Origin: Escherichia phage Es2
Sequence record: OR515477.1
DNA: 64,000 bases
Direction: 5' to 3' (one strand)
Below are positions 30,659-45,243 of the stretch, one piece after another; the first letter of the stretch is position 1, and the number at the start of each line of letters is the position of its first letter. The position numbers and the translations under genes are program-made. The notes beneath the pieces are model-generated. The model saw only the letters and a list, made by a program, of their open reading frames with translations, was not told where the DNA came from and did no database searches.

Positions 30659-30687
30659 TTGCTCAGTGCCTTAAAACTTGGTATAAT
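30659..30687 (+). promoter_or_regulatory. early-type sigma70 promoter overlapping a 12 bp-stem hairpin
   Basis: TTGCTC, 17 bp, TGGTATAAT; -35 lies inside the inverted repeat GCACTGAGCAAG...CTTGCTCAGTGC (30631-30669). Confidence 0.55.
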
Positions 30688-30705
30688 AGTTATCTAATTT
30701 GGAAA

Positions 30706-30812: not shown

Positions 30813-30890
30813 GGGGGGTTGGCTCAGAGGCGACGGCGCCTGGCTGTAGACCGGGTATACCACGCGGAGGTTCGAGTCCTCCATCCCCCA
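30813..30890 (+). tRNA. tRNA-Tyr (anticodon GTA)
   Basis: Acceptor GGGGGGT/ATCCCCC, anticodon loop CTGTAGA, extended variable region, T-arm GGAGG-TTCGAGT-CCTCC, CCA encoded. Confidence 0.6.
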
Positions 30891-30911
30891 CCAAATTACT
30901 AAGGAAATAAT

Positions 30912-31457: not shown

Positions 31458-31514
31458 TGGTTAGGACATCAGGATTTCAATCTGAGAATCGGAGTTCAAT
31501 TCTCCGTGGGTGTA
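31443..31514 (+). tRNA. tRNA-Glu (anticodon TTC)
   Basis: Acceptor GCACCTA/TGGGTGT, anticodon loop ATTTCAA, T-arm CGGAG-TTCAATT-CTCCG, CCA encoded. Confidence 0.7.
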
Positions 31515-31523
31515 CCAAATTCT

Positions 31524-31599
31524 GCATTCCTAGAGTGTTACTGGACAGCATGTCGGTCTCCAAAACCGTACGGTCTAGGTTCGAGTCCTAGTAGGTTTG
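31524..31599 (+). tRNA. tRNA-like, possible tRNA-Trp (anticodon CCA)
   Basis: Good T-arm CTAGG-TTCGAGT-CCTAG and anticodon loop CTCCAAA, but acceptor stem pairing is poor; ends approximate. Confidence 0.35.
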
Positions 31600-31608
31600 C
31601 CAAAATTT

Positions 31609-31680
31609 GCACCTTTAGCTGAGATGGATTAGCGCTTGCCTGAAGAGCTTGAGAGGTTCGTTCGATTCGAACAGGGTGCA
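31609..31680 (+). tRNA. tRNA, possible tRNA-Phe (anticodon GAA)
   Basis: Acceptor GCACCTT/AGGGTGC, T-arm GTTCG-TTCGATT-CGAAC, CCA encoded; anticodon stem weak (loop CTGAAGA). Confidence 0.5.
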
Positions 31681-31685
31681 CCAAT

Positions 31686-31973
31686 TTGAGGGAGCTGCTG
31701 ATGCATCCTGAAAACTTCTTTATTTACTGCGCTGATAAGTCGCTGAAACGTAGAATTAACAAAGTCTATCATTATAGTGCTAGTCAACAGCCTTATGTAT
31801 ACGCTTTTGACGGTGATCACATTCCACTAGAACAATTATCTTGTGATTACATGATATTGAAGAACTTTGATGAGACGAAGATCTCGAGCGTTCATAATCG
31901 ACAGAATCCATTGACGTGGAAATATAAGAAGAAAAAGAAAGGCATCAAATTCTTAAAAAATGTAGTTGCTTAG
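31686..31973 (+). CDS. hypothetical protein
   Basis: 95 aa ORF; a promoter overlaps its 3' end. Confidence 0.45.
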   Translation: MRELLMHPENFFIYCADKSLKRRINKVYHYSASQQPYVYAFDGDHIPLEQLSCDYMILKNFDETKISSVHNRQNPLTWKYKKKKKGIKFLKNVVA

Positions 31974-31994
31974 TTTCCAAAAGTTCTGTATAAT
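31966..31994 (+). promoter_or_regulatory. early-type sigma70 promoter
   Basis: TTGCTT, 17 bp, TGTATAAT. Confidence 0.6.
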
Positions 31995-32005
31995 AATTAC
32001 ATAAA

Positions 32006-32248
32006 TTGAACTGGAGAAGCAACATGACAGAACAAGAATTGAATGAACGTAAGCTGGTAATGCTTCGCTTACTAAATATTTTCTCTGGTATGGACGGTGG
32101 AATTGACTTTGTTCATCTACGTTCTTTCGTAGAAGAAGCTGAAGGCGAATCTATCACTAAAATCCTTAAACACATGGGATTACTTTTAGATGCTGCTAAT
32201 GTGGCTACTGAATATAAAATAGAAGATCTACCGGAGCGTGTTAAATGA
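32006..32248 (+). CDS. hypothetical protein
   Basis: 80 aa ORF after promoter 31966-31994. Confidence 0.5.
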   Translation: MNWRSNMTEQELNERKLVMLRLLNIFSGMDGGIDFVHLRSFVEEAEGESITKILKHMGLLLDAANVATEYKIEDLPERVK

Positions 32249-32436
32249 AACGATTAGTTAGATTTAAGTGTTGTGGTTCCGAGCACATTTTCACACATCT
32301 TCGTGAATTTAAAATGTGTGATTGTGGTAAATCAGGCTATGACTCAGGAGATGGGTTCTACACCCGTACTCTAGGGAACTTCAATGATCTAGAATTTGAA
32401 GATCTCGAAAAACAAGATAAACCGACCGTTGGCTGA
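32245..32436 (+). CDS. small Cys-rich protein
   Basis: 63 aa, CCGSEH...CDCG motif; 3' end overlaps tRNA-Cys. Confidence 0.45.
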   Translation: MKRLVRFKCCGSEHIFTHLREFKMCDCGKSGYDSGDGFYTRTLGNFNDLEFEDLEKQDKPTVG

Positions 32437-32495
32437 ATGGCTTAGGCGAAGGATTGCAAATCCTTTTTATGTGAGTTCAAATCTCATGCGGTCGT
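32423..32495 (+). tRNA. tRNA-Cys (anticodon GCA)
   Basis: Acceptor CGACCGT/GCGGTCG, anticodon stem-loop AAGGA-TTGCAAA-TCCTT, T-arm GTGAG-TTCAAAT-CTCAT, CCA encoded. Confidence 0.7.
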
Positions 32496-32501
32496 CCAAT
32501 T

Positions 32502-32640
32502 TGCTGAAAGAATTGTTAAATCAATTCAGGCACGCGTAGGAACACTGTCTCCGTAATTGAAAGATGAGGCACGGTTTGGAGAGGTATGCCGCTACACGCT
32601 ACGGTGCTAACTCCGTCTAGGTGAAAATCCTAGTCAGCAA
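32502..32640 (+). ncRNA. long tRNA-like element (~139 nt)
   Basis: 7 bp acceptor-like pairing TTGCTGA/TCAGCAA, D-arm-like hairpin GAATTG-TTAAAT-CAATTC, T-arm-like CTAGG-TGAAAAT-CCTAG; no ORF. Confidence 0.35.
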
Positions 32641-32650
32641 TATAAATTTA

Positions 32651-32730
32651 GGGTCGTTAGCCAAGCGGTTTGGCGGTGGACTGTTAATCCATGTCGAAAG
32701 ACAACGTAGGTTCGAATCCTACACGGCCCG
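32651..32730 (+). tRNA. tRNA-Asn (anticodon GTT)
   Basis: Acceptor GGGTCGT/ACGGCCC, anticodon loop CTGTTAA, extended variable region, T-arm GTAGG-TTCGAAT-CCTAC, CCA encoded. Confidence 0.65.
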
Positions 32731-32835
32731 CCAAATTCTGTGTAGAGTTAAGTAAACCGGTAGCCAACCAGCTATCATTGCTGATATCGAATTCAGCCAC
32801 AGATACCATTTTCATTAATAACTGAGGAAACAAGC

Positions 32836-33021
32836 ATGTCCAAGAATGTAATTGCACAGCTAGAAGTTCATCGTGATAACACAGCTAATAACATTAAGTG
32901 CCGACAAAAAGATATTGAAGCTCGAAAGGCTGATCTTTTAATGAGTATTCGAGAGCTTAATGTACGGAAAGAGTTTCTTAAAGAACTTAATGCAGCTATT
33001 GAAAAACTCAAAGTTGAGTAA
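32836..33021 (+). CDS. hypothetical protein
   Basis: 61 aa ORF, coiled-coil-like. Confidence 0.4.
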   Translation: MSKNVIAQLEVHRDNTANNIKCRQKDIEARKADLLMSIRELNVRKEFLKELNAAIEKLKVE

Positions 33022-33030
33022 ATAAATTAT

Positions 33031-33104
33031 GCGACCGGGGCTGGCTTGGTAATGGTACTCCCCTGTCACGGGAGGGAATGTGGGTTCAAATCCCATCGGT
33101 CGCG
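33031..33104 (+). tRNA. tRNA-Asp (anticodon GTC)
   Basis: Acceptor GCGACCG/CGGTCGC, anticodon stem-loop CTCCC-CTGTCAC-GGGAG, T-arm GTGGG-TTCAAAT-CCCAT, CCA encoded. Confidence 0.75.
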
Positions 33105-33132
33105 CCAAATTAATTTAGTATGAGAATATACT

Positions 33133-33480
33133 ATGCGTAATGCTAAAGAAGAGTTGTTACTTGCCTTAAAAAATACTAATTCTGAAGTTAAATGTATTAA
33201 AATAGAATTCGGGTATTATGGGGATAAAAAAGTTTGGGTATTACCTTTAGGTTATACAGAAAAAGATATTGAGGATTTTCTTAATAATCTAGACTTTAAG
33301 TACGATTCTGGGTATGGTGGGCAATTACTTTATGGTAATGTATGGTTTGCCGACGGAACTTGGCTAGAACGTGGGGAATACGATGGTGCTGAGTGGTGGG
33401 AGTACAAAGCTACCCCGGAAATTCCAGAGGAATGCCGAACAATTAATGGTGAAGTAGATAATACTTTACTATTAAACTAA
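33133..33480 (+). CDS. hypothetical protein
   Basis: 115 aa ORF. Confidence 0.5.
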   Translation: MRNAKEELLLALKNTNSEVKCIKIEFGYYGDKKVWVLPLGYTEKDIEDFLNNLDFKYDSGYGGQLLYGNVWFADGTWLERGEYDGAEWWEYKATPEIPEECRTINGEVDNTLLLN

Positions 33481-33602
33481 AAGAATTTCAGTGCAGAACA
33501 CGGAGCTAGCAATTCGGAAGTGCTGACTCATGATAAGCTGCCTATGTACTTGCTAAGCGGTCGTGTCCAAGACTCGGACTCTTGCACTGAAAACAATCAA
33601 AC

Positions 33603-33723
33603 ATTCTAGCGTGGTTGATGGGGAAACCAGCTTGGCTAGGGCAGAAGCTCGTTCGATTCGAGTGAAAGAATGGTTCTCGTAAGTCCGCACAAGTGATAGC
33701 AGGTTCGAGTCCTGTCTAGAATG
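33603..33723 (+). ncRNA. long tRNA-like element (~121 nt)
   Basis: Perfect 7 bp acceptor pairing ATTCTAG/CTAGAAT, T-arm GCAGG-TTCGAGT-CCTGT, internal second T-arm-like GCTCG-TTCGATT-CGAGT; too long for a canonical tRNA. Confidence 0.4.
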
Positions 33724-33731
33724 ACACTATA

Positions 33732-33859
33732 AAGTTTACTTATTATGTAGGTTCCGATAGATCGGCGGGTCTATTCTGGCATTTAAGAGAAGTCTCGCAA
33801 ACTTCTTTGTCAGCCGTGGGGTTGGTAGCCTCCAGGTGGCCTACACAATAAGTAAATTT
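33732..33859 (+). ncRNA. long hairpin element (20 bp stem enclosing ~88 nt)
   Basis: AAGTTTACTTATTATGTAGG (33732-33751) pairs with CCTACACAATAAGTAAATTT (33840-33859); sub-hairpins inside; no ORF. Confidence 0.4.
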
Positions 33860-33872
33860 ATTAAAAATTCAT

Positions 33873-33901
33873 TTGCTATTTTTCTTAATTATCTGTATAA
33901 T
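33873..33901 (+). promoter_or_regulatory. early-type sigma70 promoter
   Basis: AAAAATTCATTTGCTA, 17 bp, TGTATAAT. Confidence 0.6.
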
Positions 33902-33933
33902 ATATTTTATAAAGTGAAGAGAAGGAAAGCAAA

Positions 33934-34092
33934 ATGAAACACAAGATAGCCCAAGTTTTTATGGCATTATGGTGTATGCCAATAGCTATAACAGCATTTA
34001 ATCTAGATACTTTTACTATAGAAGAAAAATGTATCGGATTAGTTAGCGGCTTTAGTATGCTTGGCTTATCTTTGTTGTGGTTGAAGAAATAA
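33934..34092 (+). CDS. small hydrophobic protein
   Basis: 52 aa ORF MKHKIAQVFMALWCMPIAITAF... after promoter 33873-33901; below track cutoff. Confidence 0.4.
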   Translation: MKHKIAQVFMALWCMPIAITAFNLDTFTIEEKCIGLVSGFSMLGLSLLWLKK

Positions 34093-34096
34093 TATT

Positions 34097-34171
34097 CTCC
34101 GTGTAGCTCAGTTTGGCCAGAGCGTTTCGTTTGGGGCGATAGGGTCGGGGGTTCAAATCCTCCCACGGAGA
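34097..34171 (+). tRNA. tRNA-Pro (anticodon TGG)
   Basis: Acceptor CTCCGTG/CACGGAG, D-arm GCTC..GAGC, anticodon loop TTTGGGG, T-arm GGGGG-TTCAAAT-CCTCC, CCA encoded. Confidence 0.7.
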
Positions 34172-34180
34172 CCAAACAAT

Positions 34181-34255
34181 TGCGGGTTAGATCTCTGGTA
34201 GAGATCGCTAGTCTCATAAGCTAGAAAGAGGTAGGTTCGATTCCTGCACCCGCTT
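34181..34255 (+). tRNA. tRNA-Met/Ile2 (anticodon CAT)
   Basis: Acceptor TGCGGGT/ACCCGCT (1-72 mismatch), anticodon stem-loop CTAGT-CTCATAA-GCTAG, T-arm GTAGG-TTCGATT-CCTGC, CCA encoded. Confidence 0.65.
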
Positions 34256-34278
34256 CCATTTTAATAGAGGATTTCGAA

Positions 34279-34446
34279 ATGAAAGTATTTCGATTAGTAG
34301 TAAGTGACAAACGGTTAGGTAAGAATACATCAAAATCCCTACTCGCTCATTACGGTAAAAATTGGGATGAAGTAATGGCAGAGTTTAGTACTAATCACCC
34401 TTACTTGAAAGTTCACTCTATTAAAGAAGTATATAATGGTTACTAA
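34279..34446 (+). CDS. hypothetical small protein
   Basis: 55 aa ORF with GAGGA RBS between tRNAs; below track cutoff. Confidence 0.4.
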   Translation: MKVFRLVVSDKRLGKNTSKSLLAHYGKNWDEVMAEFSTNHPYLKVHSIKEVYNGY

Positions 34447-34447
34447 T

Positions 34448-34523
34448 AGATCGCTAGCTCAATAGGTTTAGTAGCATCCGACTTTTAATCGGAAGGTTCT
34501 GGGTTCGAGTCCCAGGCGATCTA
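34448..34523 (+). tRNA. tRNA-Lys (anticodon TTT)
   Basis: Acceptor AGATCGC/GCGATCT, anticodon stem-loop TCCGA-CTTTTAA-TCGGA, T-arm CTGGG-TTCGAGT-CCCAG, CCA encoded. Confidence 0.75.
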
Positions 34524-34530
34524 CCAAATT

Positions 34531-34601
34531 GCTCGGTTAGTTTAATGGGAGAACCCCGTCTTTACACGGCGGTTGAGATAGTTCAATTCTATCACCGAGT
34601 A
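34531..34601 (+). tRNA. tRNA-Val (anticodon TAC)
   Basis: Acceptor GCTCGGT/ACCGAGT, anticodon loop TTTACAC, T-arm GATAG-TTCAATT-CTATC, CCA encoded. Confidence 0.7.
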
Positions 34602-34623
34602 CCAATTAACTCAAAATAAGGAA

Positions 34624-34983
34624 TTGCAAATGCAATTATCAAGCAAGATTCAAGGTTATTTCGGTCATGTAACAATGGAGTTCGCTATCTCTAAAGGTTG
34701 GGACTTCGAACAAGATTTAGCTGAGTTCTACAAAGATATTGATCTGAACGTACCGTACATGGGACTTTCTACTGGTCAGGAGATCACAGAAGCCGATGTA
34801 TTCAAGGCAAGTCAAGGTGAGGTAACACCTAGTTTTGCCGAGTTCTGGTTAGGCATTACGTTAAAAGAAGATGCACCAGATAGTGGTGTACTAATGTCTA
34901 GTATGCACTCTGGAAGTTCCGATTACCTTTTCATTAGCGATGTTAAGGAAATACAAGAAGTCTGCAAAAATGTACTTGCTTGA
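34624..34983 (+). CDS. hypothetical protein
   Basis: 119 aa ORF with AAGGA RBS. Confidence 0.5.
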   Translation: MQMQLSSKIQGYFGHVTMEFAISKGWDFEQDLAEFYKDIDLNVPYMGLSTGQEITEADVFKASQGEVTPSFAEFWLGITLKEDAPDSGVLMSSMHSGSSDYLFISDVKEIQEVCKNVLA

Positions 34984-35004
34984 TGCTTAATTTCTTGTTA
35001 TAAT
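34976..35004 (+). promoter_or_regulatory. early-type sigma70 promoter
   Basis: TTGCTT, 17 bp, TATAAT; followed by hairpin GATGAGGA-GAAA-TCCTCATC. Confidence 0.55.
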
Positions 35005-35242
35005 ATTTATATAAATTGATGAGGAGAAATCCTCATCATAGTTCACTAAGGTATTAGCTCGACCTAGGACTGGCTGCCAAAAAGCACGATCCCTACGATT
35101 CGGGAAAAGTTCTAGATTGGTCCACTAGATTCAGCGGCAACTGAATAGTGTATTGGGTTTGCGAGATGACGTAGTTCCTTCCGCTCTAAGCGAAGGTGCT
35201 GTAGTTACGCCGAGCTAATAGCCTTAGTAAACTAAAGAATTT

Positions 35243-35318
35243 GGGGAATGGGTCTGCATGGAGTGGACACCTCGCTTGCACCGAGGACATCAGAACGGTT
35301 CGATTCCGTTATTCTCCA
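35243..35318 (+). tRNA. tRNA-Ala (anticodon TGC)
   Basis: Acceptor GGGGAAT/ATTCTCC, anticodon stem-loop CCTCG-CTTGCAC-CGAGG, T-arm AACGG-TTCGATT-CCGTT, CCA encoded. Confidence 0.7.
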
Positions 35319-35326
35319 CCAAATAC

Positions 35327-35400
35327 GCGTGATTGATGGAATGGGCATACATACCGTCCTTAGAAGTCGGGTTTTGAGGGTTCGAATCCCTTGTCACGCA
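35327..35400 (+). tRNA. tRNA with anticodon TAG (Leu-decoding; class I architecture)
   Basis: Acceptor GCGTGAT/GTCACGC, anticodon loop CTTAGAA, short variable arm, T-arm GAGGG-TTCGAAT-CCCTT, CCA encoded. Confidence 0.55.
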
Positions 35401-35515
35401 CCAAATTTGATGGTCAGAGTAAATTAAACCTACTATCTCGGTTGAGCTGTTTTAATGGGTTCGAATCCCAGCGGGGCGTAACTGCCTGGTGTGATAGAGG
35501 CATCATCTTATTATT

Positions 35516-35603
35516 GGAAGAGCAAATCGAATTGGCGACGAAAACCGCTTGGAAAGTGGCTGACTGGTAAAACGGCTTGAGAGTTCAAATCTCTCCTCTT
35601 CCG
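35516..35603 (+). tRNA. tRNA-Ser (anticodon GGA)
   Basis: Acceptor GGAAGAG/CTCTTCC, anticodon loop TTGGAAA, 18 nt variable arm, T-arm GAGAG-TTCAAAT-CTCTC, CCA encoded. Confidence 0.7.
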
Positions 35604-35618
35604 CCAAACAATTTATAT

Positions 35619-35710
35619 GGTAGGTCAATCCAATGGCTGGCGCTGGACTCCGACTTGAAATCGGTTGATCGTAGTGATACGGTGTAAGGGTTCGATCCCC
35701 TTACCTACCT
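35619..35710 (+). tRNA. tRNA-Ser (anticodon TGA)
   Basis: Acceptor GGTAGGT/ACCTACC, anticodon loop CTTGAAA, 20 nt variable arm, T-arm AAGGG-TTCGATC-CCCTT, CCA encoded. Confidence 0.7.
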
Positions 35711-35716
35711 CCAAAT

Positions 35717-35850
35717 CTTGAAGTATGCCGGAATCGGTAGACGGGGCTGCCTAAAAGGTTTATAGGGAACATCCACTCCCTGCAACATACCTCATAAAGC
35801 GGCTGAGATAAATGGTCTATCTCGTGAAGGTTCAAGTCCTTCTGCTTCTT
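35717..35850 (+). ncRNA. long tRNA-like element (~134 nt)
   Basis: Acceptor-like pairing TGAAGTA/TGCTTCT (6 of 7), T-arm GAAGG-TTCAAGT-CCTTC, internal D-arm-like hairpins; no CCA, no ORF. Confidence 0.35.
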
Positions 35851-35964
35851 GATACATCTATGGCTCAAAGTGTAACGGTGCTATTTGATGCTCTTGGTAA
35901 GACTTCCCCGACATGCGTTCGGGAGTAAGCTGCTAAGACTAGAGTAGAAGAGTTTCTGAGAGCC

Positions 35965-36084
35965 GCCACAATTGAAAATTCGTACTCGTCTTGAGCTGCG
36001 CGCAATAGGAGATAACTTGATTAGTATTCTAGAACATGCTAATTGAGGAAGGTTTCGCTAACCCTGCGAGTTTTCAATTGTGGC
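35965..36084 (+). ncRNA. long hairpin element (18 bp stem enclosing ~85 nt) abutting tRNA-His
   Basis: GCCACAATTGAAAATTCG (35965-35982) pairs with CGAGTTTTCAATTGTGGC (36067-36084); the 3' arm overlaps the tRNA-His acceptor. Confidence 0.4.
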
Positions 36085-36153
36085 TATATCATAATTGGTT
36101 AATGATCCTGATTGTGAATCAGGCCTATGTGGATTCGAATTCCACTAGCCACC
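36080..36153 (+). tRNA. tRNA-His (anticodon GTG)
   Basis: Acceptor GTGGCTA/TAGCCAC, D-arm TCAT..ATGA, anticodon stem-loop CCTGA-TTGTGAA-TCAGG, T-arm GTGGA-TTCGAAT-TCCAC, CCA encoded. Confidence 0.7.
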
Positions 36154-36180
36154 CCAAATTAACTTAAATAGGAAATAAAT

Positions 36181-36387
36181 ATGGCTGATTTCTGCAAACA
36201 ATGCTCCATTGATATGTGGGGTAAAGATACTGGTGATCTTTCTGGTTTGATTACAGAAGCTGAAGTTAAAGAAGGCTACGGTGCTGCTGTGATCTGCGAA
36301 GGATGCGGAGTTATTCGAGTAGATCATGAAGGCAAACGTTTAGAAGATCCAAAAAGTATTAAGAAGAAGGTTAGCCAAGTAGGTTAA
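36181..36387 (+). CDS. small zinc-ribbon protein
   Basis: CKQCS...CEGCG motifs, 68 aa; 3' end overlaps tRNA-Gln. Confidence 0.5.
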   Translation: MADFCKQCSIDMWGKDTGDLSGLITEAEVKEGYGAAVICEGCGVIRVDHEGKRLEDPKSIKKKVSQVG

Positions 36388-36437
36388 GGCTGGGGTCTCT
36401 GAAATCCTGATCAGTGGTTCGAATCCACTACCTTCTG
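36365..36437 (+). tRNA. tRNA-Gln (anticodon CTG)
   Basis: Acceptor AGAAGGT/ACCTTCT, anticodon loop CTCTGAA, T-arm AGTGG-TTCGAAT-CCACT, CCA encoded. Confidence 0.6.
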
Positions 36438-36446
36438 CCAAACAAT

Positions 36447-36521
36447 TGGGGATTAGCTTAGCTTGGCCTAAAGCTTCGGCCTTTGAAGTCGAGATCATTG
36501 GTTCAAATCCAATATCCCCTG
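36447..36521 (+). tRNA. tRNA-Gln (anticodon TTG)
   Basis: Acceptor TGGGGAT/ATCCCCT, D-arm GCTT..AAGC, anticodon stem-loop TCGGC-CTTTGAA-GTCGA, T-arm ATTGG-TTCAAAT-CCAAT, CCA encoded. Confidence 0.65.
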
Positions 36522-36534
36522 CCAGCTAAATTAA

Positions 36535-36607
36535 TGCGTGATTAGTTCAGTGGCTAGAATAACTGGCTTCCAACCAGTAGACACGAGTTCGACTCTCGTA
36601 TCCCGCA
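36535..36607 (+). tRNA. tRNA-Gly (anticodon TCC)
   Basis: Acceptor GCGTGAT/ATCCCGC, anticodon stem-loop ACTGG-CTTCCAA-CCAGT, T-arm ACGAG-TTCGACT-CTCGT, CCA encoded. Confidence 0.7.
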
Positions 36608-36624
36608 CCAAATAAGGAAACGTT

Positions 36625-36846
36625 ATGCACGTTTTTGAGTTTCGTAATAAAAATACTGATAAGCGAGTTATCATTATTGGAGAAACATACCGAGCATATG
36701 AACAAACTGACGGCTCTGTTATCTTGAATGATGAGAAAGGAGGTTTTAGCTTTTATCCAGAAGAACCTTATGAAGAGTTTCGTACTAAGTTTCTTTTACC
36801 AGACTGGCTAGCAGTAGCCGAGCAACGAGAATCCGAAGATGGCTGA
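36625..36846 (+). CDS. hypothetical protein
   Basis: 73 aa ORF, AAGGAAAC RBS. Confidence 0.5.
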   Translation: MHVFEFRNKNTDKRVIIIGETYRAYEQTDGSVILNDEKGGFSFYPEEPYEEFRTKFLLPDWLAVAEQRESEDG

Positions 36847-37001
36847 TAACCTAAAATTAAGGGTCGACAAACAAAAGAAATACATTGAGGTTGAATTAGG
36901 CGAAGAACGATTAAAGCTAACTTTCGAGTTTCTTCAGCAGTTGGCTATGACAGTTATGACTGATAAGTCTCCTGTTATTGAAAAAGAAATCCCGTTGAAA
37001 T
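36840..37001 (+). CDS. hypothetical small protein
   Basis: About 53 aa ORF (MADNLKLRVDKQKKYIEV...) overlapping the previous stop; coordinates +/-2. Confidence 0.35.
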
Positions 37002-37012
37002 AACGGGATCAT

Positions 37013-37085
37013 CGCTCCTAAAGCATTGCTGGCGATGCAGTTGCCTTGTAAGCATCTGAACCGGGTTCGATTCCTGGTGGGAGCA
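37013..37085 (+). tRNA. tRNA-Thr (anticodon TGT)
   Basis: Acceptor GCTCCTA/TGGGAGC, D-arm GCAT..ATGC, anticodon loop CTTGTAA, T-arm CCGGG-TTCGATT-CCTGG, CCA encoded. Confidence 0.65.
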
Positions 37086-37103
37086 CCAAATTTAAAAATT
37101 CAT

Positions 37104-37132
37104 TTGCTTTCTCTCTTATTTATTGTTATAAT
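37104..37132 (+). promoter_or_regulatory. early-type sigma70 promoter
   Basis: AAAAATTCATTTGCTT, 17 bp, TATAAT. Confidence 0.6.
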
Positions 37133-37162
37133 ATTCATATAAATTAATGAGAGGGAAGCCAA

Positions 37163-37456
37163 ATGAAACGTTATCTTTCTGTTGTGTTCCAAACTGGTGG
37201 TCAACGCTATACTTACGAATTTCCTGGCTCTTGGAAGATCAAAGAAGGTGATCAAGTAGTAGTGTTAACACCGCGTGAGGGTTTTAAGGTAGTAACGGTT
37301 AAGCAAGTATTTCCAAAAGAGCGTGAACCAGCTAAAGGCATTCGCTATAAGATGATTCATGGTGTAGTTCGTCAAGTACCACGAGCGGAAGTCGAAATCA
37401 AAGTAGATAAAGATGGTAAACTTAAATATACCTCTTGCTTAGACGAGTTGCTATAA
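37163..37456 (+). CDS. hypothetical protein
   Basis: 97 aa ORF after promoter 37104-37132. Confidence 0.5.
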   Translation: MKRYLSVVFQTGGQRYTYEFPGSWKIKEGDQVVVLTPREGFKVVTVKQVFPKEREPAKGIRYKMIHGVVRQVPRAEVEIKVDKDGKLKYTSCLDELL

Positions 37457-37662
37457 TGAGGATTACTTTTACAGAAAAGATCATGAGTAATGGTGTTATG
37501 ATCATTACCGCATGGGATGGTAATCAGTGGTGTAGTGTTTCAGGTATTAAGCCTGAAGAACAAACACTAGATAATATCTCAAAGATTAAGCGAAGAATGA
37601 CAGAACGTGCACGACTTCCAGGTGCACCTAGAAATGGCAAACGTTCTGCTGCAAAATGTTAA
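37456..37662 (+). CDS. hypothetical protein
   Basis: 68 aa ORF starting at overlapping TAATG. Confidence 0.45.
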   Translation: MRITFTEKIMSNGVMIITAWDGNQWCSVSGIKPEEQTLDNISKIKRRMTERARLPGAPRNGKRSAAKC

Positions 37663-37663
37663 T

Positions 37664-37737
37664 GCTTCGGTAGCTTAGCGATCTAAAGCACTCGGCTGAT
37701 AACCGAGAGATCGGGGGTTTAAATCCCTCCCGGAGTA
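37664..37737 (+). tRNA. tRNA-Ile (anticodon GAT)
   Basis: Acceptor GCTTCGG/CCGGAGT, D-arm GCTT..AAGC, anticodon stem-loop CTCGG-CTGATAA-CCGAG, unusual T-loop TTTAAAT, CCA encoded. Confidence 0.7.
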
Positions 37738-37836
37738 CCAAATTTAGGAATTAAGACTATGCGTCCAGGAAAGTTTAAAAAAGCTAATTGGTCTAAAGAG
37801 TATAAAGAATACTTACTTAGTCTAGTAAAACATAAT

Positions 37837-37909
37837 AGTTAGTTGGCAGAGTGGTTATGCACCTCCTTCATACGGAGCGACTACAGTGGTTCAAATCCAC
37901 TACTAACTA
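37837..37909 (+). tRNA. tRNA-Met/Ile2 (anticodon CAT)
   Basis: Acceptor AGTTAGT/ACTAACT, anticodon loop TTCATAC, T-arm AGTGG-TTCAAAT-CCACT, CCA encoded. Confidence 0.65.
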
Positions 37910-37949
37910 CCATTAAAAGAGCTAGAGATAGCTAACTTTAGGAGCAGCT

Positions 37950-41158: not shown

Positions 41159-41193
41159 GCCCAGCCTGCACTTTTGCGACTGGGCTATTTTTA
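41159..41193 (+). terminator. rho-independent terminator
   Basis: GCCCAG...CTGGGC hairpin followed by TATTTTTAT. Confidence 0.6.
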
Positions 41194-41207
41194 TAATAAA
41201 ATTTTAG

Positions 41208-41267: not shown

Positions 41268-41966
41268 ATGAGGATTATTTCTAAGTTCGCCGATGTGTAT
41301 GATTTGCAGAACAGTTTGTTTGACCCAGATCGTGTGTGGGAACGTAAAACTGAGGAGTTACTGGTTAAAGTAACCGATGATGCAGAAAAGAACATTGTGC
41401 ATACTCGCCAGGTATTTCGTGATGGTTCGCTATCTTTCCGTGGTGATTTCGAATACTTTGTAAACCCACTATTTGTTGCAGGTGAAGTTTACTGGTTACA
41501 CGAGCTGTACTGCTGGCATCCAGCATTTAGCTTCAAAACGTTCAACCTCGACACTATGTTCGATAAAATGGAAGAGATGGGATTGCATGCTCGCTCTTAC
41601 TTAATGGATAAGAGTCGCGGAGATGTTCGTGAAACAATGCGTGATTTGCTCGCTGAAGCAAAACCTAAAGCAGAACGTATCTTATCCGAACTGCGTGTAC
41701 CGATTGCATATGTGAAAGGTATTAAGAAGAACGATAACGATGATGTTCGTAACTTCGTGATTCAGACTAACATTCGTTTCCATCAGTCAGGTATTCCGTG
41801 GCAGGAAATTGAAAGTAACTTATACCGTTTACACCAAGTTCTCGAACAGTATATCTTCGGTGTACTAGGAACTGGTGAGCCTGATATGATTAAAGTATCA
41901 GATAAAGACAGGTTAGCAGCGCATGGATTTGATACAAAAACTTCTTTCAGGAATATGGCAAGGTAA
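41268..41966 (+). CDS. hypothetical protein
   Basis: 232 aa ORF after promoter 41208-41236. Confidence 0.55.
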   Translation: MRIISKFADVYDLQNSLFDPDRVWERKTEELLVKVTDDAEKNIVHTRQVFRDGSLSFRGDFEYFVNPLFVAGEVYWLHELYCWHPAFSFKTFNLDTMFDKMEEMGLHARSYLMDKSRGDVRETMRDLLAEAKPKAERILSELRVPIAYVKGIKKNDNDDVRNFVIQTNIRFHQSGIPWQEIESNLYRLHQVLEQYIFGVLGTGEPDMIKVSDKDRLAAHGFDTKTSFRNMAR

Positions 41967-42372
41967 GTGGTATATCCTGGGAGCAGGTCTAGCGATAGGC
42001 ATCGGGTTCGGTGCTTATCACTTAGTAGATAAAGTGGAGACTTTAGCGGGAGATCTTGCGGTAGCTACTAAAAAGATCTCTTCTCTAGAAACTTCCCTTA
42101 ATAAGGTGAAAGCTGAGAGCGAACTTCGGGAGACTCGAATGAACCAGTATTTCACAATGAATAATATTTCGCAAGCAGATCTAGACAAAAAGATTAAGCA
42201 GCTAGATAAAGCTCTTAGTCGTCAAGATATTATAGCTGCAAAGCCTGGATTGGTAACATTAATAGCTAAAAAGCAGAGTAGAGAGTTCGAGGAAAGATTA
42301 GCATGTTTAACTGGAAACTTGGAATACTGCTCGCAGCCGCAATCACAATCACAGGCTGTGCAGAAGAAATAA
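41923..42372 (+). CDS. putative i-spanin-like protein (TM plus coiled coil)
   Basis: N-terminal TM (WYILGAGLAIGIGFGAYHLV) followed by coiled-coil; downstream lipoprotein gene starts inside its 3' end. Confidence 0.45.
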   Translation: MDLIQKLLSGIWQGKWYILGAGLAIGIGFGAYHLVDKVETLAGDLAVATKKISSLETSLNKVKAESELRETRMNQYFTMNNISQADLDKKIKQLDKALSRQDIIAAKPGLVTLIAKKQSREFEERLACLTGNLEYCSQPQSQSQAVQKK

Positions 42373-42656
42373 AACCAGAGCCTTCTCATGAGTTAAAGCA
42401 AGCTCATGTAGACTGGCCTAAAGGACTTCAACCTTGTAGCTTTGACTTTAAGTTTGAAAAGAAATTAGCTACAAATGGGGAAGATGGCGTAGTAGTTGTT
42501 GTACCATATAAAGATTGGAATGCAAAAGCAAAATGTGAGGAAGCAGTTTACTCTTACATTTCACGACTGACTGGTATGGTTTGCTTCTATCGCCAAGATT
42601 TACAAGAAAAACGTTGCTTAGTTTACTATCCACCAATTAACAATAGGAAAGATTAA
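42303..42656 (+). CDS. putative o-spanin-like lipoprotein
   Basis: Lipoprotein signal MFNWKLGILLAAAITITGC (lipobox ITGC); overlaps the upstream gene in another frame (Rz/Rz1-like arrangement). Confidence 0.45.
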   Translation: MFNWKLGILLAAAITITGCAEEIKPEPSHELKQAHVDWPKGLQPCSFDFKFEKKLATNGEDGVVVVVPYKDWNAKAKCEEAVYSYISRLTGMVCFYRQDLQEKRCLVYYPPINNRKD

Positions 42657-43408
42657 TGTCAGTATTAGTCGGTTTACATGGTGAAGCTGGTTCGGGAAAA
42701 GATACCGTTGCAAAATTAATTATCGATTGGTGTAATGACACGTATCCAACGTGTTTATCCCGTCGTTATAGTTTTGCTAAGCCCGTTTATGAACTTGCAT
42801 CCGTAATCCTCGGTGTAACTCCAGAGTTTCTAGGAGAGCGCAGAGGAAAAGAGATTGCTCAATGGTTTACGGTCACACAATCTCAATTGGAGCGAGCTAG
42901 AGATGTGTGGTTTAAATACGGTATCGATAAGTTTGAAGACTTCTCGTACGTTTGGCCTATTTTTGAGGAAAAATATCTTAATCCTCAACAACTTATCTCA
43001 GAGAATAAAGAAGACGGACTTTATAGTTTATTTATTTCTCCGAGAAAAATGTTACAGCTCGTAGGGACAGAGCTAGGAAGGCAGCTGGTGCATGAACGCA
43101 TTTGGCTCATAATTCTGGAGCAATCCATCGCTAAAGACGACCCAGACGTCGCCGTAATAACAGATGTTAGATTCCCCAATGAAGGAGAGCTACTCAGAGA
43201 AACAAACCATTTAGATATGGATTCTTTGATAGTAAATGTAGTACCCGCTGAGCAGAAGTTTACTATTAAATCAGATCATCCATCTGAAAGTGGTATTCCT
43301 GCAAAATATATTACTCACGAATTAGTTAATAAATTCGATGGTATCAATAACCTTAAACTAGAAGTTTATAACTTCTGTGACTTAGAGCTAGAACCACTAG
43401 TTGGATAA
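42656..43408 (+). CDS. deoxynucleoside monophosphate kinase-like P-loop kinase
   Basis: Walker A LHGEAGSGKDT resembles phage dNMP kinases. Confidence 0.55.
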   Translation: MSVLVGLHGEAGSGKDTVAKLIIDWCNDTYPTCLSRRYSFAKPVYELASVILGVTPEFLGERRGKEIAQWFTVTQSQLERARDVWFKYGIDKFEDFSYVWPIFEEKYLNPQQLISENKEDGLYSLFISPRKMLQLVGTELGRQLVHERIWLIILEQSIAKDDPDVAVITDVRFPNEGELLRETNHLDMDSLIVNVVPAEQKFTIKSDHPSESGIPAKYITHELVNKFDGINNLKLEVYNFCDLELEPLVG

Positions 43409-43420
43409 TCAAGGATCGCT

Positions 43421-44020
43421 ATGACTAATAAAAAAGAAGAAAAGACTAACCTGTTTCACTCCATTCGCCAATCTAACGAGTATACCTTTTTCTTTGATGA
43501 AGAATTAGGCCCACCAGATGAATACCGTGATTTATCAATGGTACTTATGCAGGCAAATGAGGACGACGAAATTAATCTGATGATTAATGGTCCGGGTGGT
43601 TATGTTGATACTGCTGCACAGTTATCTAACTTAATTGCTAATTGCCGTGGAACAGTTATAGGGCATCTGATTGGTCCTAGTGCTTCTGCTTACTGCACAA
43701 TTTTCCTATCCTGTCATGGGTGGGTAGTACATCCACATGCTACGCTAATGGGGCACACGTTCTCTGGCGGATTCTGTGAGAAGGGTCAAGAAATTAAGAA
43801 AGCCTATGAATCTTACAACAAGTTCGTAGAAGATATGATGCTAGATGTCTACTATCCGTTCTTCTCAATAGACGAAATCGACGAGATGGTAAAAGACAAC
43901 AAAAATATCTATCTAGATAGCAAAGAAATCCATAAGCGTATTGAAATCTTGGCAAAATATCGATCTGAGCAATATAATAAAGCCCAGTTACCTCAATTAG
44001 AGGAGCACAGTGAAGAGTAA
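43421..44020 (+). CDS. ClpP-like serine peptidase
   Basis: INGPGGYVDTAAQL (ClpP INSPGG-like), GPSASAY serine region, downstream His residues. Confidence 0.55.
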   Translation: MTNKKEEKTNLFHSIRQSNEYTFFFDEELGPPDEYRDLSMVLMQANEDDEINLMINGPGGYVDTAAQLSNLIANCRGTVIGHLIGPSASAYCTIFLSCHGWVVHPHATLMGHTFSGGFCEKGQEIKKAYESYNKFVEDMMLDVYYPFFSIDEIDEMVKDNKNIYLDSKEIHKRIEILAKYRSEQYNKAQLPQLEEHSEE

Positions 44021-44029
44021 GTAGTTTTA

Positions 44030-44060
44030 AGCCAGGGTTTAACGACCCTGGCTTTTCTTT
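44030..44060 (+). terminator. rho-independent terminator
   Basis: GCCAGGG...CCCTGGC hairpin followed by TTTTCTTTT. Confidence 0.65.
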
Positions 44061-44176
44061 TATCTAAAATTCTTCTTGACAACGACAAAATTTTATGCTC
44101 CAGAAGTGATCTTTAAAAACACATTGTAATTTTCCTCCAAAATTAGTATAATGGTACTGGTTAGAGGAGGTTACAA

Positions 44177-44833
44177 TTGGAAAAGTTCTTACAATTATTA
44201 ACGGTACTGCTCCAAGAAGCGAAAGATCCAGCATCGCTTCTTAAACGTCTGCTAACTATCTTAGTTGCTGTCATTATTTTCTTATTTGTTAGTAATACTA
44301 GCGAGGTGATGTCATTCTTAAAGACTTTCTCCACGTCTGCGGTTCTACAGGATGTTCAAACTCAAAGGATAGATAACTTTCCTAATGTAGCTAGAGAAAA
44401 AAGCATGGTACTCTTTTCTCAAACGGGTGCGGATGCTGTTTTTGTCGTCAAGTATAAACCCGATGCCATTAATGATTATTCTAACATTATTGCATGGGAA
44501 AGCAATGCGCAATTAGATAGGGCTGACTTGGCCGATAAAGCGGTAAATAAAACGTCTGAGCTATATAGACGTCACTTGGAAGGCTTTAACTACGCATCGG
44601 ATTTAAGTGTAAAAGTAAATAAATACATGGGGTTAGATATACCTGCGTTTAAGAACGTTACTTTTAATTACATATACACTTGTCCATATTTCAATCTAAA
44701 CAATATCTATGCTGGATATATTGGTATTGCTTGGAAAGATAATCCTGTAGATGCAGCCGATTCTGAGAAATTTAACGAGTATTTAACAAAGCTCTGTTCC
44801 CCACAACAGAGATCTTTAGGTAGATCAATATGA
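44177..44833 (+). CDS. putative holin
   Basis: 218 aa with N-terminal TM (LTILVAVIIFLFV), directly upstream of and overlapping the endolysin gene. Confidence 0.6.
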   Translation: MEKFLQLLTVLLQEAKDPASLLKRLLTILVAVIIFLFVSNTSEVMSFLKTFSTSAVLQDVQTQRIDNFPNVAREKSMVLFSQTGADAVFVVKYKPDAINDYSNIIAWESNAQLDRADLADKAVNKTSELYRRHLEGFNYASDLSVKVNKYMGLDIPAFKNVTFNYIYTCPYFNLNNIYAGYIGIAWKDNPVDAADSEKFNEYLTKLCSPQQRSLGRSI

Positions 44834-45243
44834 GTTTTAAATTTGGTAAAAATAGTGAAAAACAATTAGCTACCGTTAAGCCAGAGCTACAAAAAGTAGC
44901 TCGTAGAGCTTTAGAATTATCTCCATATGATTTCACGATCGTACAGGGTATTCGTACAGTAGCACAAAGTGCCCAGAATATTGCTAATGGTACTTCATTT
45001 TTAAAAGATCCTAGTAAAAGCAAGCATATTACTGGGGATGCCCTTGATTTTGCTCCATATATTAATGGCAAAATTGATTGGAATGATTTAGAAGCATTTT
45101 GGGCAGTTAAAAAGGCTTTTGAACAAGCAGGTAAAGAACTAGGCATTAAACTTCGTTTTGGTGCTGATTGGAATGCTTCGGGAGACTATCACGATGAAAT
45201 AAAACGTGGTACCTATGATGGCGGTCATGTCGAACTAGTTTAA
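44830..45243 (+). CDS. lys: endolysin, L-alanyl-D-glutamate peptidase type
   Basis: 137 aa; H..D...H metal-site pattern (KHITGDALD ... DGGHVELV); matches the T5 endolysin as recalled from memory. Confidence 0.75.
   Translation: MSFKFGKNSEKQLATVKPELQKVARRALELSPYDFTIVQGIRTVAQSAQNIANGTSFLKDPSKSKHITGDALDFAPYINGKIDWNDLEAFWAVKKAFEQAGKELGIKLRFGADWNASGDYHDEIKRGTYDGGHVELV

What the first reader, a model, noticed from the sequence alone, without database searches (positions are those of the whole stretch)
42656..44020. dNMP-kinase-like P-loop protein followed by a ClpP-like peptidase
A ClpP-like serine peptidase (INGPGG, GPSASAY) directly downstream of a nucleotide kinase is an unusual pairing in an early/lysis region. 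Phage ClpP-like proteins usually function as prohead proteases in the late region, so this copy may target host or phage regulatory proteins instead.
Basis: partly seen in the sequence, partly recalled or inferred. Interest (0 to 1): 0.4.

Follow-up and report, generated by a model that had tools for sequence, protein, structure and literature searches.

The report
Phage T5 dnk and ClpP-like gene
These two genes are near-identical copies of phage T5's nucleotide kinase (dnk) and its long-annotated but never characterised ClpP-like peptidase (T5.042), a second, non-capsid protease that looks unable to dock the host's ClpX/ClpA motors.

Summary
ORF 42656-43408 is the T5 dNMP kinase Dnk (99.2% identical). 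ORF 43421-44020 is T5.042 (98.5% identical), a 199-aa ClpP-fold protein carrying the quoted INGPGG and GPSASAY motifs.

The window is a Tequintavirus early region. The order spanins, dnk, ClpP-like, terminator, promoter, holin, endolysin is standard for T5-like phages, so the pairing is ordinary there.

T5.042 is not the prohead protease. T5-like genomes carry a separate HK97-type protease (pb11, T5.150) in the late region, outside this window.

The protein belongs to a large phage-specific family (phrog_1827; 531 50%-identity cluster representatives at E<=1e-30). Ser89 and His112 are invariant. The third triad residue is Asp in most members but Asn162 in the T5 clade.

The residues that line the ClpX/ClpA docking pocket in ClpP are mostly polar here, and the N-terminal axial loop is missing. 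The label 'ATP-dependent Clp protease' is therefore unsupported.

T5.042 knock-down has no fitness cost in laboratory E. coli, and a 2023 paper calls the function unknown. My best reading is an accessory, early, chaperone-independent compartmental peptidase of unknown substrate.

The gene pair is already known and of low to moderate interest.

The parts
41174..41202 (+). Promoter-like site (TTGCGA-17-TAAAAT) upstream of the operon that contains dnk and the ClpP-like gene
   Evidence: Consensus scan. A promoter is annotated at the equivalent place upstream of T5.047 in T5. This is a consensus match only.
41268..41966 (+). T5.047-like protein of unknown function, first gene of the transcription unit
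   Evidence: phrog_4243, 2.1e-114. The T5.047 orthologue is scored 'Fit' in CRISPRi-ART.
41923..42372 (+). Rz-like inner-membrane spanin (T5.045 orthologue)
   Evidence: phrog_739, 4e-37; T5 annotation.
42303..42656 (+). Rz1-like outer-membrane lipoprotein spanin (T5.044 orthologue); N-terminus ends in the lipobox-like ITGC
   Evidence: phrog_812, 3.5e-30; N-terminal sequence MFNWKLGILLAAAITITGC.
42656..43408 (+). dnk: deoxynucleoside monophosphate kinase (T5.043 orthologue), Walker A GEAGSGKDT at nt 42680-42706
   Evidence: PF21448 at 44.8 bits; phrog_139 at 6.8e-52; 248/250 residues identical to T5 Dnk.
43410..43416 (+). Shine-Dalgarno-like CAAGGAT in the 12-nt spacer between the dnk stop codon and the ClpP-like start codon
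   Evidence: Sequence TAATCAAGGATCGCTATG. The function is inferred.
43421..44020 (+). ClpP-fold serine peptidase homologue (T5.042 orthologue, phrog_1827 family), 199 aa
   Evidence: PF00574 at 33.6 bits; phrog_1827 at 1.3e-89; 196/199 residues identical to T5.042. AF2 model with pLDDT 89.3. The top 50 Foldseek PDB hits are all ClpP. dN/dS is 0.04-0.10.
43583..43600 (+). INGPGG motif (aa 55-60); Gly60 aligns with the oxyanion-hole Gly68 of E. coli ClpP
   Evidence: G59 and G60 are invariant in 190/190 family members.
43685..43687 (+). Codon of Ser89, the predicted nucleophile (aligns with E. coli ClpP Ser97)
   Evidence: Invariant in 190/190 family members.
43754..43756 (+). Codon of His112, the predicted general base (aligns with ClpP His122)
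   Evidence: Invariant in 190/190 family members.
43904..43906 (+). Codon AAT of Asn162, at the position of the ClpP catalytic Asp171. It is Asp in 158 and Glu in 17 of 190 family members; Asn occurs only in the T5 clade (8/190)
44029..44054 (+). Intrinsic-terminator-like hairpin (11-bp stem, then a T-run) that ends the operon after the ClpP-like gene
   Evidence: A terminator is annotated at the same place in T5.
44124..44152 (+). Promoter-like site (TTGTAA-17-TATAAT) for the holin-endolysin unit
   Evidence: A promoter is annotated at the same place in T5.
44177..44833 (+). T4 T-type holin (T5.041 orthologue)
   Evidence: PF11031, 2.2e-113.
44830..45243 (+). Endolysin, M15-type peptidase (T5.040 lys orthologue)
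   Evidence: phrog_465, 2.2e-54; weak Pfam match to Peptidase_M15_4.

Best explanation
The region holds two ordinary early genes of a T5-like phage. They are transcribed in one operon: T5.047-like, two spanins, dnk, ClpP-like, terminator. The first gene is the dNMP kinase Dnk, which feeds phage DNA synthesis.

The second is the T5.042 orthologue, a soluble 199-aa ClpP-fold serine peptidase of a phage-specific family. It keeps the ClpP head domain, the handle helix, the oxyanion-hole glycine, the nucleophile Ser89 and the base His112. I infer that it assembles into ClpP-like rings and cleaves peptide bonds inside a chamber. It lacks the N-terminal axial loop and helix A, and most hydrophobic residues of the IGF-loop docking pocket. 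I therefore infer that it does not work as a proteolytic subunit for host ClpX/ClpA. It more likely acts as a chaperone-independent peptidase on unfolded or short polypeptides, or with a partner not yet known.

In the T5 clade the third triad residue is Asn162 instead of Asp. In a cellular precedent, Listeria ClpP1, this change weakens the active site. The protein is a second, accessory protease, distinct from the HK97-type prohead protease pb11, and it is dispensable under laboratory conditions.

Shown here: identity, fold, residue conservation, gene order, purifying selection, and the existence of a separate prohead protease. Inferred: oligomeric state, ATPase independence, catalytic activity, and any role in host takeover.
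For: Identity: 98% nucleotide identity to Tequintaviruses; 98.5% and 99.2% protein identity to T5.042 and Dnk; the T5 annotation has the same gene order, terminator and promoters.

Fold: AF2 model with pLDDT 89.3 and a long helix at 123-144. The top 50 Foldseek PDB hits are all ClpP, with TM about 0.6-0.66 and rmsd about 2.5-2.9 A over about 160 columns. phmmer against PDB finds only ClpP chains below E=0.1.

Catalytic residues: Ser89, His112, Gly59 and Gly60 are invariant in 190/190 family members. Position 162 is Asp in 158, Glu in 17 and Asn in 8 members, all eight from the T5 clade.

Selection: dN/dS is 0.04-0.10, and N162 is retained in every T5-like copy tested.

Not a canonical ClpP. 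E. coli pocket residues Y60, Y62, F82, I90, M92, F112, L114 and L189 align with N52, M54, N74, H82, I84, V102, H104 and A178. Residues 1-19 are low-confidence coil, with no helix A, and the N-termini are unalignable across the family. The ClpP equivalog TIGR00493 scores 16.9 bits against a cut-off of 308.6.

Not the prohead protease. T5.150 sits next to the major capsid protein. It occurs in about as many T5-like records as the ClpP-like gene. The ClpP-related head-maturation model scores 40.1 bits against a cut-off of 120.

Accessory role: T5.042 is 'Not Fit' in CRISPRi-ART (fitness -4.47, p 0.90; PMC11879866 supplement).

Soluble: the maximum 19-aa hydropathy is 1.28.

Family size: 531 50%-identity cluster representatives at E<=1e-30 and 1331 phage records.
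Against: No biochemical data exist for any member of the family. Oligomeric state, activity and substrates are all inferred.

The pocket mapping rests on an alignment at 16-20% identity, and my list of pocket residues comes from memory of the ClpP literature. Only the conserved pocket tyrosine is confirmed by a paper read here (PMC8182300).

The Asn162 triad could mean very low activity on its own. Listeria ClpP1, which has Ser/His/Asn, is inactive alone (PMC9257651).

The BF23 orthologue was detected in purified virions (PMC10644984). That hints at a morphogenetic or injected role, which my reading does not explain.

Knock-down screens can miss enzymes that are needed only in small amounts.
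Confidence: 0.6

Rival explanations
1. Hybrid protease with host ClpP. A T5.042 heptamer, weakly active or inactive alone because of its Ser-His-Asn triad and unable to dock an unfoldase, stacks on a host ClpP heptamer. Host ClpX/ClpA docks on the host ring. The mixed particle would change the activity or cleavage pattern of the host Clp machine during infection, as Listeria ClpP1 does with ClpP2.
For: T5.042 shares the two hallmark features of LmClpP1: an Asn in place of the triad Asp and no cognate chaperone-binding site (PMC9257651). The Listeria ClpP1/2 heterocomplex 4ryf is among the structural matches. The handle segment SGGFCEKGQEI aligns with ClpP LGGYQGQATDI.
Against: Most members of the phage family keep Asp or Glu (175/190), so the ancestral state looks like a self-sufficient enzyme. 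Identity to E. coli ClpP is only about 16-18%. No ring-ring interface compatibility was tested. No interaction data exist.
Confidence: 0.12
2. Canonical ClpP substitute, as the database label 'ATP-dependent Clp protease proteolytic subunit' implies. The phage protein replaces or supplements host ClpP and is driven by host ClpX/ClpA.
For: Pfam CLP_protease is matched above its gathering score. The protein has the ClpP fold with a handle helix. The label is used in hundreds of records.
Against: Docking-pocket residues are mostly polar or changed, and the N-terminal axial loop and helix A are missing. ClpP equivalog and subfamily models score 17-23 bits against cut-offs of 228-347. Neither T5 nor this window has a phage-encoded Clp ATPase annotated beside the gene.
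Confidence: 0.08
3. Virion-associated or morphogenetic protease. T5.042 processes a structural protein other than the major capsid protein, or is packaged and injected to act at the start of the next infection.
For: The BF23 orthologue (ORF45) was detected by mass spectrometry in purified virions. Its intensity was similar to that of the tail terminator and tail completion proteins (PMC10644984). The family's nearest profile relatives after phrog_1827 and phrog_5410 are ClpP-type head maturation proteases (phrog_1684 at 8.3e-21; NF045542).
Against: The gene lies in the early region under an early-type promoter, far from the morphogenesis genes. Knock-down has no fitness cost. The signal is about 0.07% of that of the major capsid protein, and the non-structural enzyme dihydrofolate reductase was also detected in the same preparation, so carry-over is possible. 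The protein has no scaffold-like C-terminal extension.
Confidence: 0.1
4. Lysis-linked protease. The gene is kept inside the lysis cluster because it tunes lysis, for example by turning over a holin, a spanin or an unknown lysis regulator.
For: In Tequintavirus and Sugarlandvirus the gene sits between the spanins and holin-endolysin. In Vibrio T5-like phages it overlaps the endolysin start. In four metagenomic loci a Hydrolase_2 cell-wall hydrolase lies directly upstream. In Seunavirus KE22 an endolysin lies about 2.2 kb upstream.
Against: Pakpunavirus, Otagovirus, Barbavirus and PH357 have no lysis gene beside it. The protein is cytoplasmic, whereas most lysis regulation takes place at the membrane or in the periplasm. 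In T5 a terminator and a separate promoter divide it from holin-endolysin.
Confidence: 0.07
5. Catalytically dead pseudo-protease that acts only by binding, as a decoy or chaperone-like cage.
For: The triad Asp is replaced by Asn in the whole T5 clade. LmClpP1, with the same triad, is inactive alone.
Against: Ser89, His112 and the oxyanion glycines are strictly invariant, even within the Asn clade, under strong purifying selection. That is hard to explain without catalysis. Asn can still orient the histidine.
Confidence: 0.05

Closest known systems
Phage T5 gene T5.042 ('ATP-dependent protease') and T5.043 (dnk), NC_005859
   Same: The proteins are 98.5% and 99.2% identical. The flanking genes, terminator and promoters are the same.
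   Different: There are only three substitutions at the C-terminal tail of the ClpP-like protein and two in Dnk. The homing endonuclease hegF that sits between T5.047 and the spanins in T5 is absent from the window.
Bacterial ClpP (MEROPS S14, Pfam PF00574), e.g. E. coli ClpP 1yg6
   Same: Both have the alpha/beta head domain plus handle helix, the NxPGG oxyanion motif, and Ser and His in the same positions. The protein length is similar.
   Different: Identity is 16-22%. There is no N-terminal axial loop or helix A. The IGF-loop pocket residues are replaced by Asn, His or Met. The triad Asp is Asn in the T5 clade. Scores are far below the ClpP equivalog cut-offs.
Listeria monocytogenes ClpP1 (4jcq; 4ryf in complex with ClpP2)
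   Same: Both have a Ser-His-Asn triad and lack the cognate chaperone docking site.
   Different: LmClpP1 is a cellular paralogue with a defined partner ring, ClpP2. No partner is known for T5.042, and most of its phage relatives keep Asp.
ClpP-related phage head maturation proteases (NCBIfam NF045542; phrog_1684, phrog_94)
   Same: They share the ClpP-type catalytic domain. They are closer in profile searches than cellular ClpP (8.3e-21 to phrog_1684).
   Different: Those proteases lie beside the portal and capsid genes and usually carry a scaffold-like C-terminal extension. T5.042 is a bare 199-aa domain in the early region, scores 40 bits against a cut-off of 120, and its genome has a separate HK97-type prohead protease.
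T5 prohead protease pb11 (T5.150, HK97 family)
   Same: It is a phage-encoded protease found in about as many T5-like records as the ClpP-like gene.
   Different: It is an unrelated family, lies in the late region next to the major capsid protein, and is not encoded in this window.

Membership tests
ClpP (S14, Pfam PF00574) | Profile match above the Pfam gathering score | tested here: met
   33.6 bits against a cut-off of 20.2, covering aa 41-139.
ClpP (S14) | ClpP fold: alpha/beta head domain plus handle helix E | tested here: met
   AF2 model with pLDDT 89.3 and a helix at 123-144. The top 50 Foldseek PDB hits are all ClpP, TM 0.6-0.66.
ClpP (S14) | Catalytic Ser and His, and the oxyanion-hole Gly | tested here: met
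   S89, H112 and G60 align with E. coli S97, H122 and G68, and are invariant in 190/190 members.
ClpP (S14) | Catalytic Asp, the third triad residue | tested here: not met
   Asn162 (codon AAT) aligns with Asp171. Asp or Glu occupies this position in 175/190 relatives, and Asn occurs only in the T5 clade.
ClpP (S14) | Hydrophobic pocket that docks the IGF/LGF loops of ClpX/ClpA | tested here: not met
   Y60, Y62, F82, I90, M92, F112, L114 and L189 align with N52, M54, N74, H82, I84, V102, H104 and A178. The test is alignment-based, and the pocket residue list is partly from memory. The conserved pocket Tyr is confirmed in PMC8182300.
ClpP (S14) | N-terminal axial loop and helix A that gate the pore and contact the unfoldase | tested here: not met
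   Residues 1-19 are low-confidence coil and the first structured element is strand 20-25. The N-termini are variable and unalignable across the family.
ClpP (S14) | NCBIfam equivalog or subfamily score (TIGR00493, PRK00277) | tested here: not met
   16.9 bits against 308.6, and 23.1 bits against 249.
ClpP (S14) | Double-heptamer (tetradecamer) assembly and ATPase-dependent proteolysis | not testable with these tools
   Only a monomer could be modelled. No biochemical data were found.
ClpP-related phage head maturation protease (NF045542) | Profile score above the cut-off, a location beside the portal and capsid genes, and a scaffold-like extension | tested here: not met
   40.1 bits against 120. 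The gene is in the early or lysis region. It is a bare 199-aa domain. A separate prohead protease, T5.150, exists.
phrog_1827 / T5.042 family (stand-alone phage ClpP-like proteins) | Full-length profile match | tested here: met
   1.3e-89 over aa 1-198 of 199, matching profile positions 5-201 of 202. 196/199 residues are identical to T5.042.
T5-type dNMP kinase (Pfam PF21448, phrog_139) | Profile match, Walker A motif, and orthology to the characterised T5 Dnk | tested here: met
   44.8 bits against 27.1; 6.8e-52; GEAGSGKDT; 99.2% identity to T5 Dnk. The enzymatic characterisation of T5 Dnk is from my own knowledge of the literature and was not read here.
SppA/S49 and NfeD ClpP-class peptidases (Ser-Lys dyad) | Profile match above the cut-off and a catalytic Lys instead of His | tested here: not met
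   NfeD1b_N scores 18.7 bits against a cut-off of 40, and there is no Peptidase_S49 hit. The invariant His112 fits a Ser-His mechanism.

The most novel reading that the evidence does not exclude
T5.042 may be a viral counterpart of Listeria ClpP1. Its Ser-His-Asn ring cannot dock an unfoldase. It would become active only when stacked on a host ClpP heptamer, creating a phage-host hybrid Clp protease that re-tunes host ClpXP/ClpAP proteolysis during early infection. A looser variant is that the family works with phage PhoH, which lies immediately upstream of the gene in several unrelated phage genera.
Probability: 0.1. Interest if true: 0.65.

Novelty: already known. Interest (0 to 1): 0.25.

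Why it matters
As a discovery it matters little. The gene pair has been annotated in T5 for about two decades and recurs in hundreds of T5-like genomes.

The residual value lies in the protein itself. The ClpP-like protein belongs to a large, strongly conserved phage family that no one has characterised, and the database label 'ATP-dependent Clp protease proteolytic subunit' is probably misleading. The docking pocket and the axial loops are not conserved, and the T5 clade has a Ser-His-Asn triad.

If the protein turned out to remodel host proteolysis or to target host defences, it would be a new type of phage takeover factor. Nothing here shows that.

Tried and rejected
Literature. Searches for T5 plus ClpP, 'phage-encoded ClpP', T5.042 and related terms found no functional study. 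The only relevant statements are that the BF23 Clp protease has unknown function and was detected in virions, and the CRISPRi-ART 'Not Fit' score. The HIDEN-SEQ and phage Tn-seq preprints contain nothing on T5-like Clp genes.

Prohead protease in the window. tblastn with T5 pb11, the major capsid protein and the portal found nothing, and there is no second ClpP-like copy. The late region lies outside the window, so the check had to be made on T5 and on the phage collection.

Functional coupling of kinase and peptidase. I rejected this because the adjacency is confined to Demerecviridae.

PhoH as a universal neighbour. This is only partly true. PhoH lies upstream in 7 of 24 diverse loci and in Alteromonas phage V22, but it is absent within 4-5 kb in the others and lies 29 kb away in this window.

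Dnk structure and naming. There is no PDB sequence relative at E<=0.01 and no NCBIfam model.

S49/SppA or NfeD membership was rejected.

A membrane or secreted location for the peptidase was rejected, because there is no hydrophobic segment.
Full report
**What is there.** ORF listing shows two tandem + strand ORFs exactly at the reported coordinates: 42656-43408 (250 aa) and 43421-44020 (199 aa). The first has a Walker A motif, GEAGSGKDT. It matches Pfam DNMK (PF21448, 44.8 bits, cut-off 27.1) and phrog_139 'deoxynucleoside monophosphate kinase' (6.8e-52). The second contains INGPGG (aa 55-60) and GPSASAY (aa 85-91). It matches Pfam CLP_protease above the gathering score (33.6 bits against 20.2) and phrog_1827 'ATP-dependent protease' over its full length (1.3e-89).

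**Where the window comes from.** The 3.3 kb around the finding is 98% identical at the nucleotide level to many Tequintaviruses (phiLLS, NBSal005, Cit2 and others). In all, 453 phage records match. Against the T5 reference the two proteins are 99.2% identical to Dnk (T5.043) and 98.5% identical to T5.042.

The T5 annotation shows the same order: T5.047, (hegF), spanins T5.045 and T5.044, dnk, T5.042, terminator, promoter, holin, endolysin. In the window the matching signals are present:
- a promoter-like site at 41174-41202
- a strong hairpin terminator at 44029-44054
- a promoter-like site at 44124-44152

A 12-nt spacer with an AAGGA ribosome-binding site separates dnk from the ClpP-like gene. 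The two genes are therefore the last cistrons of one early operon, and holin-endolysin is a separate unit.

**Is the pairing unusual?** No. It is conserved synteny in Demerecviridae. Klebsiella Sugarlandvirus has spanins, dnk, Clp, holin, endolysin. Vibrio T5-like phages have dnk, one ORF, Clp, endolysin.

Outside that family the same ClpP-like gene is never beside a dNMP kinase. This holds for Barbavirus, Pakpunavirus, Otagovirus, Seunavirus and Pseudoalteromonas phage PH357, and for a clustering of neighbours over 24 diverse loci. There is thus no sign of a kinase-peptidase functional unit.

**Is it a protease, and which kind?** An AlphaFold2 model built on 40 homologues is confident (pLDDT 89.3). 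It shows a ClpP-like head domain and a long helix at 123-144 in the place of the ClpP handle helix. The top 50 Foldseek hits in the PDB are all ClpP chains, with TM about 0.6-0.66. phmmer against PDB sequences finds only ClpP below E=0.1.

I aligned 190 sequences (this protein plus the homologues retrieved here) and examined the catalytic positions:
- Ser89, His112, Gly59 and Gly60 are invariant in all 190. They align with the E. coli ClpP nucleophile Ser97, the base His122 and the oxyanion Gly68.
- The third triad position (E. coli Asp171) is Asp in 158 members and Glu in 17.
- That position is Asn only in the eight T5-clade sequences, including this one (Asn162, codon AAT).

The gene is under strong purifying selection within T5-like phages (dN/dS 0.04-0.10), and Asn162 is retained. 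Catalysis is therefore very probably the selected function, with a modified triad in the T5 lineage.

**Is it a ClpP in the working sense?** Several defining features fail:
- The hydrophobic residues that line the pocket for the IGF loops of ClpX/ClpA are E. coli Y60, Y62, F82, I90, M92, F112, L114 and L189. This list is from my knowledge of the ClpP literature; the conserved pocket tyrosine is confirmed in PMC8182300. They align with N52, M54, N74, H82, I84, V102, H104 and A178, and are mostly polar across the phage family.
- The N-terminal axial loop and helix A are absent. Residues 1-19 are low-confidence coil, and the N-termini are variable across the family.
- NCBIfam ClpP equivalog and subfamily models score 17-23 bits against cut-offs of 228-347.

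The common label 'ATP-dependent Clp protease proteolytic subunit' therefore rests on fold-level homology only. The protein has no hydrophobic segment, so it is cytoplasmic.

**Is it the prohead protease?** No. T5 encodes an HK97-type head maturation protease (T5.150, pb11) directly beside the major capsid protein. Its close homologues occur in about as many T5-like records as the ClpP-like gene: about 440 against 438 records at >=80% identity. Co-occurrence within individual records was not tabulated. The late region is outside this window, because tblastn with pb11, pb8 and the portal finds nothing.

The ClpP-related head-maturation model NF045542 scores 40 bits against a cut-off of 120, and the protein has no scaffold-like extension. 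In profile terms the family is nevertheless nearer to ClpP-type prohead proteases (phrog_1684, 8.3e-21) than to cellular ClpP. It may descend from such a protease.

**What is known about function.** I found no functional study. Two facts bear on the question.
- In BF23, the orthologue (ORF45) was detected by mass spectrometry in purified virions, and the authors state its function is unknown. The intensity was about 0.07% of that of the major capsid protein and similar to low-copy tail proteins. Dihydrofolate reductase, not previously reported as a T5 virion component, was also detected (PMC10644984).
- In the T5 CRISPRi-ART screen, T5.042 is 'Not Fit' (fitness -4.47, p 0.90). Its operon neighbour T5.047 is 'Fit' (PMC11879866 supplement).

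T5.042 is therefore dispensable under laboratory conditions, as expected for an accessory gene.

**Family and context.** The family is large: 531 50%-identity cluster representatives at E<=1e-30 and 1331 phage records. It spans Demerecviridae, Barbavirus, Pakpunavirus, Otagovirus, Vequintavirinae and marine phages.

Two neighbourhood patterns turned up.
- A PhoH-family P-loop ATPase lies upstream, often immediately or overlapping. This is seen in Barbavirus, Otagovirus, PH357, one metagenomic locus and, by literature, Alteromonas phage V22. In all, 7 of 24 diverse loci have PhoH within 4.2 kb upstream. In this window PhoH is present but 29 kb away (13995-14756).
- Lysis enzymes of different families are often nearby.

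Neither pattern is universal. I treat both as leads.

**Most likely mechanism.** I commit to the following. T5.042 is an early, cytoplasmic, self-compartmentalising ClpP-fold serine peptidase. It works without the host Clp unfoldases, acts on unfolded or short polypeptides or on a specific substrate not yet known, and gives a conditional rather than essential advantage.

The steps shown are identity, fold, residue conservation, selection, gene order, a separate prohead protease, and no laboratory fitness cost. The steps inferred are ring assembly, activity, ATPase independence and any host-directed role. My confidence in this composite is about 0.6.

The most interesting rival is prompted by Listeria ClpP1. 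That protein has the same Ser-His-Asn triad and lacks chaperone docking. It is an inactive heptamer alone and becomes active when stacked on a ClpP2 ring (PMC9257651). By analogy, T5.042 could form a hybrid particle with host ClpP. I give this about 0.1, because most family members keep Asp and no interface was tested.

The other rivals are a canonical ClpX/ClpA-driven subunit, a virion or morphogenetic protease, a lysis-linked protease and a dead pseudo-protease. Each gets 0.05-0.1.

**Verdict.** The feature is already known as T5 dnk and T5.042. Interest is low to moderate (0.25). The only open question is the function of a widespread but uncharacterised phage ClpP-like family, and this finding does not by itself bring that closer to an answer.

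Noticed in passing
L006:2698-4220, L009:1690-3055, L011:1568-3289, L037:3689-5705; window 13995-14756: In several unrelated phage genera the ClpP-like gene lies immediately downstream of, or overlapping, a PhoH-family P-loop ATPase. These are Barbavirus, Otagovirus, Pseudoalteromonas phage PH357, one IMG/VR contig and, by literature, Alteromonas phage V22. In all, 7 of 24 diverse loci have PhoH within 4.2 kb upstream. The window also encodes a PhoH (PF02562, 3.3e-61), but 29 kb away from the ClpP-like gene.
   Followed up: partly
window 42838-42841 (inside dnk): This is the only GCGC in the 1.5 kb of the finding (context GAGAGCGCAGAG). It lies at the position homologous to the 'major DNA single-chain interruption' annotated inside T5 dnk, which has the consensus Pu-GCGC. 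This phage probably carries the same site-specific nick.
   Followed up: partly
window 41957-41970 versus T5 (NC_005859) 23245-23742: The homing HNH endonuclease hegF (F-TflVI) lies between T5.047 and the spanins in T5. It is absent from the window, as it is from phiLLS. The alignment to T5 jumps over it.
   Followed up: partly
L005:3399-4361 (Vibrio phage D308): The Vibrio T5-like version of the ClpP-like protein is 320 aa. It has an acidic, low-complexity C-terminal extension of about 115 aa, keeps the triad Asp, and its stop overlaps the endolysin start. No separate holin is annotated between them.
   Followed up: no
L024:4366-4902 and the equivalent ORFs in L025, L026 and L032: In a group of metagenomic viral contigs a Hydrolase_2 (SleB-type) cell-wall hydrolase lies directly upstream of the ClpP-like gene, and a PD-(D/E)XK nuclease lies before that. 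This is a second, non-orthologous association of the gene with a lysis enzyme.
   Followed up: partly
window 27428-37912: There is a cluster of 23 tRNA genes on the + strand, the typical T5 tRNA region. It includes two tRNA-Met, two tRNA-Gln and two tRNA-Leu.
   Followed up: no
L001:13035-13280, 16115-16396, 18292-18738, 19009-19242 (phiLLS RefSeq annotation): Several small early-region ORFs in RefSeq T5-like records carry implausible structural names: 'major head protein' for an 81-aa ORF, plus 'tail sheath monomer', 'putative terminase' and 'minor tail protein'. These look like annotation-transfer errors and should not be read as late genes in this region.
   Followed up: no
window 41268-41966: The first gene of the operon is a T5.047 orthologue (phrog_4243) with no Pfam match. 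It is scored 'Fit' in the T5 CRISPRi-ART screen, whereas all its downstream neighbours are 'Not Fit'. It is an uncharacterised gene that may be important.
   Followed up: no
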